From: a virus
Lineage: Duplodnaviria > Heunggongvirae > Uroviricota > Caudoviricetes
Length of the DNA: 6,439 nt
Strand: one strand, 5' to 3'
Virus record (IMG/VR): IMGVR_UViG_2695420565_000002
Shown here: positions 3,688 to 6,023 of the stretch, in pieces
How positions within the stretch are numbered: position 1 is the stretch's first letter
Layout: the number at the start of each line of letters is the position of its first letter
Translations under genes and position numbers: made by a program
Notes under the pieces: generated by a model
Told to the model about the DNA's origin: nothing
Database searches by the model: none
What the model saw: the letters and a program-made list of their open reading frames with translations, nothing else

Positions 3688-3887
3688 TGTGCGAGTTTTA
3701 TGAAGCAGATATCAAACGCCCAGAAATGGCAAGTGATGCGACATTACGTGATTACTTCGCGGCAAAGGCTATGCAAGCAATGATTAGCAATCCATCGATT
3801 ATCGATAATGATTCTGATGGAGTTGTTAATTATGCAGCAAGCGCTGCATATAAGTTTGCAGACGCAATGCTCAAAGCTCGCGAATAA
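3684..3887 (+). CDS. Hypothetical protein (67 aa; 66 aa if starting at ATG 3687)
   Basis: GGGAGG SD at 3675..3680; ATGA overlap with the upstream gene; MMCEFYEADIKRPEMASDATLRDYFAAKAMQAM...; no family recognised. Confidence 0.65.
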   Translation: MMCEFYEADIKRPEMASDATLRDYFAAKAMQAMISNPSIIDNDSDGVVNYAASAAYKFADAMLKARE

Positions 3888-3892
3888 GCACT

Positions 3893-3920
3893 GTGTATTC
3901 ATTCCAACGAGTGAATACAC
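3893..3920 (+). other. Strong RNA hairpin without U-tract (12-bp stem GTGTATTCATTC / GAGTGAATACAC, loop CAAC)
   Basis: Stem seen directly in sequence, 5 nt after the stop of the 67-aa gene; not followed by a T-run, so not a typical intrinsic terminator. Confidence 0.5.
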
Positions 3921-3982
3921 GGAGCAATGTCGCTCGTAACTAAACAGGAGCCGACTTGTTCTGATTATTGGAAATCTTCTTT

Positions 3983-4010
3983 GCCCTCCGATGTGGGGGG
4001 CCTTTTTATA
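3983..4010 (+). terminator. Rho-independent terminator within the early-left operon, upstream of the cIII-like gene
   Basis: GCCCTCC-gatgt-GGGGGGC (7 bp, one G-U) followed by CTTTTTATA. Confidence 0.6.
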
Positions 4011-4073
4011 TGCATACCAATAACGCTTCACTCGAGGCGTTTTCGTTATGCAATCAAACAGAAGGAGCATCCT

Positions 4074-4244
4074 ATGCAACAGTTCGCTATTGCAGGGGCG
4101 GCATCGGTTCGCCCTTTCAACCCGATTTTATCGGTACAGCATTCACGAAAAAACATTTTAACCGGAGCAGACTTTAAACAACCAAGAATGAAAAGTTTGC
4201 TCGAAAAGCTTTGGGATATTTTGAAACAACAAGGCCGTCCATGA
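4074..4244 (+). CDS. CIII-like protein (56 aa), putative FtsH/HflB inhibitor
   Basis: GAAGGAG SD 6 nt upstream of ATG 4074; N-terminus MQQFAIAG and C-terminus SLLEKLWDILKQQGRP resemble lambda CIII (MQYAIAG...RLIDILNQPGVP, recalled); the central region differs. The longer track ORF from 3927 would span the terminator and is not used. Confidence 0.5.
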   Translation: MQQFAIAGAASVRPFNPILSVQHSRKNILTGADFKQPRMKSLLEKLWDILKQQGRP

Positions 4245-4411
4245 GTTTTACAGATAACTGGTCAGACGAAGAATTCATTCGTCAGATGAAAGAATTAATC
4301 GGTAACGAAGGAGATATTCATGTCACTTGCAACCACAGTGAAGGAGAGCAAGTTACAGAGACGCATGTACACGCAGCAGGCGTTAATGTATCGCCAGAAG
4401 GGAGATCGTGA
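4241..4411 (+). CDS. Hypothetical small acidic protein (56 aa), start overlaps cIII-like stop (ATGA)
   Basis: MSFTDNWSDEEFIRQMKELIGNEGDIH...; weak SD; C-terminal half looks less protein-like; overlaps an alternative-frame ORF with a much better SD. Confidence 0.4.
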   Translation: MSFTDNWSDEEFIRQMKELIGNEGDIHVTCNHSEGEQVTETHVHAAGVNVSPEGRS

Positions 4412-4490
4412 AGGTGTTCGCGTATTTTTAAATGCGGCAAAGACTGAAGTATTAAATCAGCGTTATTTCCTTGGGCCATGTCCATTCTGA
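4320..4490 (+). CDS. Hypothetical small protein (56 aa) in alternative frame, not in the ORF track
   Basis: AAGGAG SD at 4308..4313, 6-nt spacer, ATG 4320; MSLATTVKESKLQRRMYTQQALMYRQKGDREGVRVFLNAAKTEVLNQRYFLGPCPF; ends 8 nt before the SSAP start. Sits where lambda has kil/gam. Confidence 0.45.
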   Translation: MSLATTVKESKLQRRMYTQQALMYRQKGDREGVRVFLNAAKTEVLNQRYFLGPCPF

Positions 4491-4498
4491 GGTGAATT

Positions 4499-5206
4499 AT
4501 GGATTTGAATAAATTCGATGAGCCATTCAGCCCTGAAGATATCGAATGGCGAATACAGCAAAGCGGTAAAACACGCGATGGCAAAGTGTGGGCTATGGTG
4601 CTGGCTTATGTCACGAACCGGGCAATCATGAAACGCCTGGACGATGTTTGCGGCAAAGCAGGATGGCGCAATGAATACCGCGATATTCCCAACAACGGCG
4701 GCGTTGAATGCGGCATATCGATAAAGATTGATTCCGAATGGGTAACCAAATGGGATGCTGCTGAAAACACGCAGGTAGAAGCCGTCAAAGGTGGTCGTTC
4801 CGGTGCAATGAAGCGCGCTGCCGTTCAGTGGGGAATCGGTCGGTATCTGTATAACCTTGAGGAAGGTTTCGCACAAACATCTCTCGATAAAAAGCAGGGG
4901 TGGCACAGGGCAAAACTGAAGGATGGAACAGGATTTTACTGGCTACCTCCATCGCTGCCGGGATGGGCAATCCCAGCATCAGATAACAAACCATCACCAG
5001 AAAATACCAACCAGAAATCTCCATCGGTTGACTGCGAACAAATCCTGAAAGACTTCAGCGATTATGCATCAACAGAAACTGACAAGAAAAAACTCATAGA
5101 ACGTTATCAGCATGACTGGCAATTAATGGCTGGCAATGAGGATGCGCAGGCTAAATGCGTTCAGGTAATGAACATCAGAGTTAACGAACTAAAACAGGCG
5201 GCATAA
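4499..5206 (+). CDS. Rad52/Sak-type single-strand annealing protein (phage recombinase)
   Basis: 235 aa; motifs AYVTNRAIMKRLDDVCGKAGWRNEY and GAMKRAAVQWGIGRYLYNL match the Rad52-superfamily signature (ALKRxxxxFGIGRYLY) as I recall it; immediately followed by ssb. Confidence 0.8.
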   Translation: MDLNKFDEPFSPEDIEWRIQQSGKTRDGKVWAMVLAYVTNRAIMKRLDDVCGKAGWRNEYRDIPNNGGVECGISIKIDSEWVTKWDAAENTQVEAVKGGRSGAMKRAAVQWGIGRYLYNLEEGFAQTSLDKKQGWHRAKLKDGTGFYWLPPSLPGWAIPASDNKPSPENTNQKSPSVDCEQILKDFSDYASTETDKKKLIERYQHDWQLMAGNEDAQAKCVQVMNIRVNELKQAA

Positions 5207-5713
5207 ATGGCAAGCAGAGGCGTAAATAAGGTGATTATCCTTGGTCGGGTAGGACAAGACCCGGAAGTTCGATACTCACCATCAGGAACAGCGTTCGCTA
5301 ACCTGACAATAGCCACGTCAGAACAATGGCGAGATAAAAATACTGGCGAGCAAAAGGAATTGACTGAATGGCATCGTGTTGCTGTATCCGGGAAACTGGC
5401 TGAGGTCGTGGGGCAGTATGTGAAAAAAGGTGATCAGATTTATTTCGAGGGAATGCTGAGAACCAGAAAGTGGAAAGACCAGTCAGGGCAAGACCGTTAC
5501 ACAACCGAGGTTCATGTCGGAATTAATGGCGTGATGCAAATGCTTGGCGGCATTGGCGACAGCAAACAACAAGCAGCCAGCAGGCAATCACAGAAGCCAC
5601 AGCAGCAATCATCACCAGCACAACACAACGAACCTCCGATGGATTTTGACGACGATATACCCTTTGCACCAGTAACTCTCCCCTTCCCTCGTCACGCTAT
5701 TCACGCAATTTAA
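5207..5713 (+). CDS. ssb: Single-stranded DNA-binding protein SSB, with C-terminal extension beyond the DDDIPF motif
   Basis: N-terminal OB-fold region [23 protein letters not shown]...[15 protein letters not shown]...[19 protein letters not shown] closely parallels E. coli SSB; Gln/Pro-rich linker; [10 protein letters not shown] is followed by 15 more residues ([15 protein letters not shown]) before the stop. Confidence 0.93.
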
Positions 5714-5726
5714 TCAGGAGAAAATC

Positions 5727-6023
5727 ATGCCAGCGCCTCTGTATGGTGCGGATGACCCGCGCCGCTGTTCCGGCAATTCCGTATCGGAGGTGCTGGATAA
5801 ATTCAGAAAAAACTACGATCGGATAATGTCTCTACCGCAGGAAACGAAAGATGAAAAGGAATTTCGCCATTGTATATGGCTTGCAGAGAAAGAAGAACGA
5901 GAGCGAATTTACCAGACATCAATCCGACCATTCCGCAAAGCCACATATACCCACTTCCCTGAATATATCGACCCGCGCCTGCGTAATTACCGCTCACGCT
6001 ATGGCGCTATCAGTAATGACTGA
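5727..6023 (+). CDS. Hypothetical protein (98 aa)
   Basis: AGGAG SD 6 nt upstream of ATG 5727; basic, protein-like composition; no family recognised. Confidence 0.6.

What the first reader, a model, noticed from the sequence alone, without database searches (positions are those of the whole stretch)
4241..4490. Two mutually overlapping small ORFs in different frames between cIII and the recombinase
A 56-aa frame (4241..4411) overlaps the cIII-like stop, and a second 56-aa frame (4320..4490) has a far stronger SD and ends just before the SSAP gene; they overlap by 92 nt. These may be genuinely overlapping genes (lambda kil, cIII and gam also overlap) or a single ancestral gene split by a frameshift. 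Neither full model is in the ORF track.
Basis: seen in the sequence. Interest (0 to 1): 0.5.

Follow-up and report, generated by a model that had tools for sequence, protein, structure and literature searches.

The report
Two overlapping small phage recombination-module genes
The two overlapping 56-codon frames are real, but they are two separate small genes already annotated in lambdoid phages, not one gene split by a frameshift, and only the downstream gene is under protein-level constraint where they overlap.

Summary
ORF1 (4241-4411) starts on the cIII stop (ATGA). ORF2 (4320-4490) has an AAGGAG Shine-Dalgarno and ends 8 nt before the Rad52-type annealing-protein gene. They overlap by 92 nt.

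Both are known small-ORF families: ORF1 = PHROG 2123 (HK022 p38, Sf6 gene 30), ORF2 = PHROG 1723 (Sf6 gene 29, HK620 HkaM). Sequences 100% identical at the protein level occur in mEp235, which annotates both overlapping ORFs.

ORF2 is a solid gene. It is an intact 56-62-aa ORF in every relative down to about 46% identity, including phages where the ORF1 frame is closed. It always lies directly upstream of the annealing-protein gene, of four different kinds.

ORF1 is probably a gene too. Its non-overlapping first 26 codons show coding-type constraint and occur alone as a 35-aa ORF elsewhere. It shares a weak [FW]SDEEFI motif with P22 Arf.

Inside the overlap, substitutions are ORF2-synonymous and ORF1-changing 11:1, so the ORF1 tail looks unconstrained. 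An 82/83-aa fused ORF exists (HK97 gp42), but that exact sequence is found only on HK97's own genome.

Function is unknown for both. Ordinary, already annotated, low interest.

The parts
4074..4244 (+). cIII-like gene (56 aa) upstream of the pair. Its stop codon overlaps the ORF1 start (ATGA).
   Evidence: PHROG 550 'CIII' E=1e-22, no Pfam hit. Annotated as CIII in HK542 and SPN9CC.
4241..4411 (+). ORF1, 56 aa, acidic (pI 4.6). Small ORF of the PHROG 2123 family (HK022 p38, Sf6 gene 30), possibly Arf-like. Probably translated by coupling to cIII.
   Evidence: PHROG 2123 E=4e-40. Annotated in HK75, HK542, mEp235 and Sf6. The exact sequence occurs on 166 contigs. AF2 gives only one helix (residues 9-20), mean pLDDT 56.
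4241..4319 (+). Non-overlapping 5' part of ORF1 (codons 1-26). This is the part of ORF1 that looks protein-constrained, and it carries the WSDEEFI motif.
   Evidence: 29 distinct mutations in 41 haplotypes fall at codon positions 1:2:3 = 3:8:18 (chi-square p=0.0024). Omega is about 0.38 (p=0.016). Observed indels are in-frame. The first 16-21 aa recur with other C-termini in HK140, SEN22 and SPN9CC.
4308..4313 (+). AAGGAG Shine-Dalgarno of ORF2, lying inside ORF1 codons N-E-G-D, 6 nt before the ATG.
   Evidence: Read from the sequence. Invariant in the alignment of six phages.
4320..4411 (+). 92-nt overlap. The ORF1 tail is read in the -1 frame of ORF2 codons 1-31.
   Evidence: 17 distinct mutations: 11 ORF2-synonymous/ORF1-changing, 5 changing both, 1 ORF1-synonymous/ORF2-changing. 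Mutational opportunities were 47:125:55.
4320..4490 (+). ORF2, 56 aa, basic (pI 10.1). Member of the HkaM / Sf6 gene 29 / PHROG 1723 family. Predicted helical hairpin with an invariant C-terminal FLGxxPF.
   Evidence: PHROG 1723 E=4.5e-34. Intact in all 205 fully matched loci, down to 46% identity. AF2 pLDDT 88.5, helices 7-27 and 30-50. RefSeq annotates it as WP_000050554.1. The exact sequence occurs on at least 1000 contigs.
4489..4495 (+). GAGGTGA Shine-Dalgarno of the annealing-protein gene, overlapping the ORF2 stop. The point where relatives switch to a different annealing-protein gene lies just after it.
   Evidence: HK97 and HK542, which carry an Erf-type gene, diverge from the window right after CCATTCTGAG.
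4499..5206 (+). Rad52/Rad22-type single-strand annealing protein gene.
   Evidence: Pfam PF04098 E=5e-26; PHROG 1097 E=4.6e-130.
5207..5713 (+). Phage SSB gene, next in the recombination module.
   Evidence: Translation; annotated as SSB in HK75 and mEp235.

Best explanation
These are two separately initiated small genes at the head of the recombination module of a lambdoid prophage's early-left (pL) operon.

ORF2 is the well-constrained gene. It is a 56-aa basic protein predicted to form a helical hairpin, and it belongs to the HkaM / Sf6 gp29 family. It starts from its own strong SD. Its stop overlaps the SD of the annealing-protein gene, so the two are probably co-expressed.

ORF1 is a small acidic protein. 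Its functional part is the first ~20-26 residues: a single predicted helix carrying WSDEEFI, similar at motif level to P22 Arf. It most likely starts by coupling to the cIII stop (ATGA). Its ribosomes then run on through the ORF2 start in the -1 frame until the first chance stop. That produces a variable tail under no detectable protein-level selection.

The overlap is therefore an incidental read-on, not a dual-coding segment and not a broken gene.

Shown: the anatomy, the independence of the two ORFs, and which frame is constrained where.

Inferred: that ORF1 is translated, the coupling, and any role in recombination. Neither protein has a known molecular function.
For: 1. Both ORFs hit established phage small-ORF families. 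Both are annotated as overlapping CDSs in mEp235 and Sf6.
2. ORF2 is an intact ATG-to-stop ORF of 56-62 aa in all relatives, including L094-L099, L188-L200 and HK620, where the ORF1 frame is closed after a few codons.
3. ORF2 always lies 8-17 nt upstream of, or slightly overlapping, the annealing-protein gene, whichever kind it is: Rad52-like, two Erf types, or Sak4.
4. I drew an unbiased sample of 118 loci by matching a 29-nt pattern in the ORF1-only part. Of these, 103 have both ORFs intact (52 or 56 aa plus 56 aa), 11 have a 35/36-aa ORF1-like gene with no ORF2, and 1 is fused, which is HK97 itself.
5. Overlap substitutions are NS 11, NN 5, SN 1 (first letter = effect in ORF1, second = effect in ORF2). 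NS versus SN gives p=0.0014. ORF2 omega is about 0.17 (p=0.0007). The ORF1-tail omega is about 2.2 and not significant.
6. The ORF1-only part shows third-position bias (3:8:18) and omega 0.38.
7. Window versus L187: ORF2 is 76% identical across the overlap, while the ORF1 tail is 29% identical.
8. AF2 is confident for ORF2 (hairpin, pLDDT 88.5). For ORF1 it gives only an N-terminal helix.
9. ORF1 length varies between lineages (52, 53, 56, 60 aa), whereas ORF2 stays at 56-62 aa with a fixed C-terminus.
Against: - No expression data for either ORF were found.
- RefSeq/PGAP annotates only ORF2 in the identical E. coli M18 prophage.
- The constraint on the ORF1 N-terminus is moderate and rests on 29 mutations. 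One natural allele has a stop at ORF1 codon 8 (L237/L113).
- An ORF1 tail overlapping ORF2 by 86-95 nt is kept in three diverged lineages (window, L187, SPN9CC). That could hint at some selection on the arrangement itself.
- The mutation counts in the overlap are small (17).
- The sample is dominated by closely related E. coli prophages.
Confidence: 0.68

Rival explanations
1. One ancestral ~82-aa gene was split by a frameshift, and the two frames are its halves.
For: HK97 gp42 is a single 83-aa ORF made of ORF1 residues 1-43 followed by the ORF2 C-terminal part. 81-82-aa fusions occur in the protein database.
Against: - HK97 differs by two 1-nt insertions from the five other phages aligned, and its exact protein is recorded on one contig, HK97's own genome.
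- The other fusions switch frame at different positions and are clusters of 1-4 members. Any indel within a 92-nt overlap creates such a fusion.
- Distant ORF2 homologues start at the same MSLATT with no ORF1 upstream.
- ORF1-like genes exist alone.
- Only 1 of 107 ORF2-bearing loci in the unbiased sample is fused.
Confidence: 0.04
2. Only ORF2 is a gene. ORF1 is a non-functional open frame, left over where mosaic modules were joined downstream of cIII/kil.
For: - PGAP annotates only ORF2.
- The ORF1 tail is unconstrained and ORF1 is predicted largely disordered.
- A natural nonsense allele exists.
- DNA similarity to other prophages stops around ORF1 codon 17 (hits H89-H91), so a recombination joint lies inside ORF1.
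- The -1 frame of ORF2 is often open by chance.
Against: - The ORF1-only segment shows third-position bias and omega 0.38 in the ORF1 frame, and not in the other two frames.
- Indels there are in-frame: a 15-nt deletion in phiKp_30 and 21-nt duplications in P0004 and P0011.
- The ATG-on-stop arrangement is kept behind two different upstream genes, cIII and kil.
- The same N-terminus heads 35-aa and 60-aa ORFs in other contexts, and the 60-aa form matches its own PHROG over its full length (phrog_17766, E=1.9e-47).
Confidence: 0.22
3. Programmed +1 ribosomal frameshifting from ORF1 into ORF2 makes an ~82-aa fusion protein in addition to the two short products.
For: - The constrained frame switches from ORF1 to ORF2 near the ORF2 start.
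- The fused form is viable in HK97.
- In the window allele an SD-like GAAGGGAG lies just before the ORF1 stop.
Against: - By inspection of the sequence, I saw no recognisable slippery site of the CUU-UGA type.
- The SD-like element and the position of the ORF1 stop are not conserved: the commoner allele stops 12 nt earlier in a different sequence.
- ORF2's own SD and ATG are conserved where ORF1 is absent.
- The RNA fold around the junction is unremarkable (z=-1.2).
Confidence: 0.03
4. True dual-coding overlap: both reading frames encode functional sequence across 4320-4411.
For: An 86-95-nt overlap is retained in three diverged lineages, and both frames are intact in 103 of 107 ORF2-bearing loci.
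Against: - Within the overlap, changes are 11:1 in favour of ORF2-silent/ORF1-changing.
- The ORF1-tail omega is not below 1.
- The tail is 29% identical where ORF2 is 76% identical.
- The tail's end point shifts between alleles.
- The tail has low pLDDT.
Confidence: 0.05

Closest known systems
Sf6 genes 30/29 and mEp235 gp34/gp33 (also HK633, HK544, Sf101, HK106, mEpX2)
   Same: The same two ORFs in the same 79-nt offset overlap, placed between kil or cIII and the annealing-protein gene. The mEp235 proteins are 100% identical to the window's.
   Different: In most of these phages kil rather than cIII lies upstream. Sf6 carries the 52-aa ORF1 allele. No function has been assigned; the RefSeq label 'recombinase' comes from PHROG propagation.
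HK620 HkaM (NP_112046)
   Same: Same family as ORF2 (PHROG 1723): a 62-aa basic protein ending in LPF, directly upstream of the annealing-protein gene.
   Different: About 30% identity. It follows kil directly with no ORF1, and the downstream gene is Sak4. Hutinet et al. 2018 (PMC5928155) call it an orphan of unknown function. In their assay sak4+ssb alone matched the whole module in oligonucleotide recombineering, so HkaM was dispensable there.
P22 Arf (accessory recombination function; Pfam PF17585, PHROG 2445)
   Same: Same slot (kil-arf-erf). Small and very acidic. Shares [FW]SDEEFI near the N-terminus with ORF1.
   Different: Similarity is at motif level only: PHROG 2445 E=0.04 to 8e-4, hhalign probability 29% over 16 columns, no Pfam hit. 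Arf abuts erf directly and P22 has no ORF2. Arf aids recombination but is not essential for it, and its mechanism is unknown (PMC12315714).
HK97 gp42 / gp42.1
   Same: The same DNA segment. These names are the source of the 'gp42.1' labels on E. coli homologues.
   Different: In HK97 two extra bases fuse ORF1 codons 1-43 to the ORF2 frame, giving 83 aa. gp42.1 is an internal start in that same frame. The fusion is unique to the HK97 record.
Short start/stop overlaps of lambdoid early-left genes (cIII/kil, kil/next gene)
   Same: Tightly packed small genes with ATGA-type junctions in the same operon.
   Different: Those overlaps are 4-16 nt. Here ORF1 runs 92 nt into its neighbour.

Membership tests
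PHROG 1723 / HkaM / Sf6 gp29 family (ORF2) | Significant full-length match to the family profile | tested here: met
   E=4.5e-34, residues 1-56 on profile positions 3-58 of 58. HkaM-like SPN9CC protein E=1.4e-31 and a distant member E=1.1e-18 on the same profile.
PHROG 1723 / HkaM / Sf6 gp29 family (ORF2) | 56-62 aa with conserved C-terminal N-x-[RK]-[YF]-F-L-G-x-x-P-F ending the protein | tested here: met
   Alignment A1 has N46 Q47 R48 Y49 F50 L51 G52 P55 F56 invariant. All full-length representatives end in PF, and HkaM ends in LPF.
PHROG 1723 / HkaM / Sf6 gp29 family (ORF2) | Gene lies immediately upstream of the phage annealing-protein gene | tested here: met
   The window has an 8-nt gap. 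The position is the same in 15 diverse loci with four kinds of annealing protein and in HK620.
PHROG 2123 (HK022 p38 / Sf6 gp30) (ORF1) | Significant full-length match to the family profile | tested here: met
   E=4e-40, residues 1-52 on profile positions 1-52 of 52.
P22 Arf family (Pfam PF17585, PHROG 2445) (ORF1) | Match to the curated family model | tested here: not met
   No PF17585 hit at E<=1, although every true Arf relative carries PF17585.
P22 Arf family (Pfam PF17585, PHROG 2445) (ORF1) | Remote homology by profile comparison | tested here: inconclusive
   PHROG 2445 E=0.042 for ORF1 and E=8.4e-4 for the L187 variant, always over residues ~4-27. hhalign probability 29%, P=5.9e-4, 16 columns.
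P22 Arf family (Pfam PF17585, PHROG 2445) (ORF1) | Small acidic protein encoded between kil/cIII and the annealing-protein gene | tested here: met
   pI 4.6 versus 4.05 for Arf. Synteny shown.
P22 Arf family (Pfam PF17585, PHROG 2445) (ORF1) | Stimulates Erf-dependent recombination | not testable with these tools
   Needs genetics of the kind used by Poteete et al. 1991, cited in PMC12315714.
Programmed-frameshift gene pair | Conserved slippery site and stimulator; fusion product is the conserved entity | tested here: not met
   No slippery motif seen by inspection. The ORF1 stop and its context differ between alleles. There is no stable RNA fold. Hard-wired fusions are rare singletons.
Dual-coding (overprinted) overlapping genes | Purifying selection detectable in both frames within the overlap | tested here: not met
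   ORF2 omega is about 0.17 (p=0.0007). ORF1-tail omega is about 2.2 and not significant. NS:SN = 11:1.

The most novel reading that the evidence does not exclude
ORF2/HkaM could be a general accessory factor of phage annealing-protein modules that works through its invariant free C-terminal ...PF. That ending resembles the tip of SSB tails (E. coli DDDIPF; HK620 SSB NDYPPF, whose last six residues matter for Sak4 stimulation, PMC5928155). The protein might occupy SSB-tail pockets on host or phage recombination proteins. Because the family accompanies four different kinds of annealing protein, a shared partner such as SSB or a host factor would fit better than a contact specific to one annealing protein. 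This rests only on sequence pattern and gene position. Nothing here tests binding, and HkaM was dispensable for oligonucleotide recombineering.
Probability: 0.08. Interest if true: 0.6.

Novelty: already known. Interest (0 to 1): 0.18.

Why it matters
It matters little beyond annotation. It shows that this widespread prophage segment carries two small genes, where automatic pipelines usually annotate one. The segment matches 1160 of 5426 complete E. coli genomes, at least in part. It also shows that HK97's 83-aa gp42 is an outlier and not the ancestral form, and that a long same-strand overlap can be a passive read-on and not dual coding. The one open biological question is what the HkaM-family protein does, given that it precedes nearly every kind of lambdoid annealing-protein gene. 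That question is old and is not made more tractable by this window.

Tried and rejected
- Pfam gave nothing for ORF1, ORF2 or cIII.
- Foldseek of the ORF2 model against the PDB gave only generic helical hairpins, E>=2.
- A profile search of 1.8 billion cluster representatives found only 20 hits, all short phage or prophage ORFs plus a few spurious long proteins. The family is narrow and there was no functional lead.
- ORF2 versus the Arf profile showed no relation (probability 0.1%). This rejects the idea that Arf equals an ORF1 N-terminus joined to an ORF2 C-terminus.
- The RNA fold of 4270-4370 is not unusual (z=-1.18), so there is no evidence for a structure gating the ORF2 start.
- A second, independent test of selection in the SPN9CC-type pair failed because only 5 loci were found.
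A DNA pattern search was used instead.
- The first locus sets were selected by ORF2 identity and are therefore biased towards ORF2-silent changes. They were not used for the overlap test, only for the ORF1-only segment.
- Literature searches found no study of gp42/gp42.1 or of the overlap.

Full report
**Setting**

The window is the immunity and early-left region of a lambdoid prophage, with the pL operon on the + strand. The gene order is a cI-type repressor, N (2549-2881), two small ORFs, a cIII-like gene (4074-4244), the two frames in question, a Rad52/Rad22-type annealing protein (4499-5206, Pfam PF04098 E=5e-26), SSB (5207-5713) and a 98-aa ORF (5727-6023) in the position where relatives encode Abc2. 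Window 4200-4520 is 100% identical to a prophage of E. coli M18. At least part of that stretch matches 1160 of 5426 complete E. coli genomes.

- ORF1 is 4241-4411 (56 aa). Its ATG overlaps the cIII TGA as ATGA.
- ORF2 is 4320-4490 (56 aa). AAGGAG lies 6 nt upstream of its ATG. Its stop overlaps the GAGG Shine-Dalgarno of the annealing-protein gene, which starts at 4499.
- The overlap is 92 nt, with ORF2 in the +1 frame of ORF1.
- The overlap length alone is not remarkable. Random synonymous recoding of ORF2 leaves the ORF1 frame open for at least 80 nt in 38% of trials and for at least 92 nt in 12-21%.

**Both ORFs are already known as annotated hypothetical genes**

- ORF1 matches PHROG 2123 (E=4e-40) and ORF2 matches PHROG 1723 (E=4.5e-34).
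- mEp235 annotates both, overlapping exactly as here and 100% identical at the protein level. Sf6 annotates them as genes 30 and 29.
- HK75 and HK542 annotate only ORF1. RefSeq's pipeline annotates only ORF2 in E. coli genomes, as WP_000050554.1.

**ORF2 is a robust gene**

I collected about 200 loci with ORF2 relatives. Every one of the 205 fully matched loci has an intact ORF2 of 56-62 aa, down to 46% identity. In the distant ones (L094-L099, L188-L200) the ORF1 frame is closed within a few codons, so ORF2 stands alone there.

HK620 HkaM (62 aa, ending ...SELPF) belongs to the same family and follows kil directly.

In all contexts examined, ORF2 lies 8-17 nt upstream of, or slightly overlapping, the annealing-protein gene. 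That holds whether the downstream gene is Rad52-like, either of two Erf types, or the RecA-like Sak4.

The family is narrow: 20 representatives at E<1e-3 among 1.8 billion. It is always 54-62 aa, and every full-length member retrieved ends in PF, usually within FLGxxPF.

AlphaFold predicts a confident two-helix hairpin (pLDDT 88.5). Fold search gave nothing specific.

**ORF1 is probably a gene, but only its head is constrained**

To avoid bias, I drew a sample by an exact 29-nt pattern inside the ORF1-only segment. The 118 loci break down as follows:

| Arrangement | Loci |
|---|---|
| ORF1 52 aa + ORF2 56 aa | 70 |
| ORF1 56 aa + ORF2 56 aa | 33 |
| 35/36-aa ORF1-like gene, no ORF2 (HK140/SEN22 type) | 11 |
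| Fused 83-aa ORF (HK97 itself) | 1 |
| ORF1 nonsense allele | 1 |
| ORF2 with an in-frame 18-nt duplication | 1 |
| ORF2 frameshifted | 1 |

Within the overlap, 17 distinct mutations were seen:

| Effect in ORF1 / effect in ORF2 | Observed | Mutational opportunities |
|---|---|---|
| Changing / silent | 11 | 47 |
| Changing / changing | 5 | 125 |
| Silent / changing | 1 | 55 |

From these counts:
- ORF2 omega is about 0.17 (p=0.0007).
- The 11:1 asymmetry has p=0.0014.
- The ORF1-tail omega is about 2.2 and not significant.

The ORF1-only segment (nt 4-78) was analysed on the sample selected by ORF2, which is unbiased for this segment. It has 29 distinct mutations at ORF1 codon positions 1:2:3 = 3:8:18 (p=0.0024), with omega 0.38 (p=0.016). 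The other two frames show no such pattern.

Indels are in-frame: 15 nt in phiKp_30, 21-nt duplications in P0004 and P0011, and 9 nt in P0036.

Comparing the window with L187, the ORF1 head is 44% identical, the ORF1 tail 29%, ORF2 within the overlap 76%, and ORF2 outside the overlap 60%.

AlphaFold gives ORF1 a single helix (residues 9-20) and a low-confidence remainder.

The ORF1 head (MSFTDNWSDEEFIRQM) recurs with other tails: a 35-aa acidic ORF in HK140 and SEN22, and a 60-aa ORF in SPN9CC that matches PHROG 17766 over its full length.

**Relation to P22 Arf**

P22 Arf occupies the same slot (kil-arf-erf). It is small and acidic and shares [FW]SDEEFI with ORF1.

The statistics are weak. PHROG 2445 gives E=0.04 to 8e-4 over about 22 residues. 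hhalign gives 29% probability over 16 columns. There is no Pfam PF17585 hit. I treat this as 'possibly Arf-like', not as membership.

ORF2 shows no relation to Arf.

Arf aids P22 recombination, is not essential for it, and has no known mechanism (PMC12315714).

HkaM is described as an orphan of unknown function. The sak4+ssb pair alone reproduced the recombineering level of the whole HK620 module, so HkaM was dispensable in that assay (PMC5928155).

**The split-gene idea**

- HK97 has a single 83-aa ORF (gp42) because of two 1-nt insertions 7 nt apart, compared with the five other phages aligned.
- That exact protein is on record on one contig only, HK97's own genome. ORF2 and the 52-aa ORF1 allele are each on at least 1000 contigs, and the window's ORF1 is on 166.
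- Other 81-82-aa fusions in the protein database switch frame at different points and are clusters of 1-4 members. That is what sporadic indels or sequencing errors within a 92-nt overlap would produce.
- The fusion is therefore derived or artefactual, not ancestral.

**Frameshifting**

By inspection I saw no slippery site. The SD-like GAAGGGAG before the ORF1 stop is specific to this allele; the commoner allele stops 12 nt earlier in a different sequence. The local RNA fold is unremarkable.

**Conclusion**

These are two independent small genes. ORF2 is a conserved HkaM-family protein that is probably co-expressed with the annealing protein. ORF1 is a short acidic protein, possibly Arf-like, whose translation reads on into ORF2's start region and produces an unconstrained tail.

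That ORF1 is translated and that either protein acts in recombination are inferences from position and substitution pattern. Function remains unknown.

The arrangement has been annotated since the HK97/HK022 and Sf6 genome papers, so the finding is ordinary.

Noticed in passing
window 3983-4010 and 4022-4047 (+): Two tandem intrinsic-terminator-like hairpins with T tracts lie just upstream of cIII. HK75 annotates two terminators at the matching position, and HK620 annotates tL2A and tL2B there. The scan found 5 terminator-like sites in 3850-4560 against 0.6 expected.
   Followed up: partly
window 4407-4432 (+): A weak terminator-like hairpin (CGTGAAGGTGTTCGCG followed by TATTTTTAAA) sits exactly on the ORF1 stop, inside ORF2. 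The commoner allele has a different sequence here, so it is probably chance. HK620 does, however, annotate a terminator (tL2D) inside hkaM.
   Followed up: no
window 5207-5713 (+), C-terminus: The phage SSB carries the canonical DDDIPF tip but continues for 15 more residues ([15 protein letters not shown]). The motif is therefore internal, although the SSB tip is normally recognised as a free C-terminus. The same extension occurs in L093 and L094, while other relatives end at DDDIPF.
   Followed up: no
L208 (HK97 NC_002167) 1001-1252: HK97 gp42 (83 aa) is an ORF1-ORF2 fusion caused by two single-base insertions (GCATGT[C]ACACGC[G]AG). The exact protein is found only on HK97's own genome, so it may be a sequencing error from 2000 or a mutation of the laboratory stock.
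   Followed up: partly
L209 (SEN22) and L210 (HK140) 1001-1108: An unannotated 35-aa acidic ORF (MSFTDNWSDEEFIRQMN..HKEQEKDDDSDSE) follows cIII via ATGA in phages with RecT/ExoVIII modules. It has the same head as ORF1 with a different tail and no ORF2. DNA similarity to the window ends near ORF1 codon 17, so a recombination joint lies inside the gene.
   Followed up: partly
window 4137-4205 of ORF coordinates, i.e. nt 137-205 from the ORF1 start (window about 4377-4445): The two common alleles (ORF1 of 56 aa versus 52 aa) are identical except for a 31-difference patch confined to about 70 nt. Some haplotypes look like recombinants between them. This is a small mosaic block inside a 171-nt gene.
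   Followed up: partly
window 4074-4244 (+): The cIII-like protein is an atypical 56-aa variant (MQQFAIAGAASVRPFNPILSVQHSRKNILTGADF...) with no Pfam hit and only a PHROG 550 match. It alternates among relatives with a classical short cIII plus kil upstream of the same ORF1.
   Followed up: no
L189, L192, L196, L200 (about 2397-2504 in 5168-nt loci): In distant phages a conserved 35-aa ORF (MDIVKALQLLAVDA.RVGNNDLFQVA..LFYRG.K) sits between cIII and ORF2, joined to both by ATGA. It has no PHROG hit at E<=1. It occupies the position of kil, but its identity was not established.
   Followed up: no
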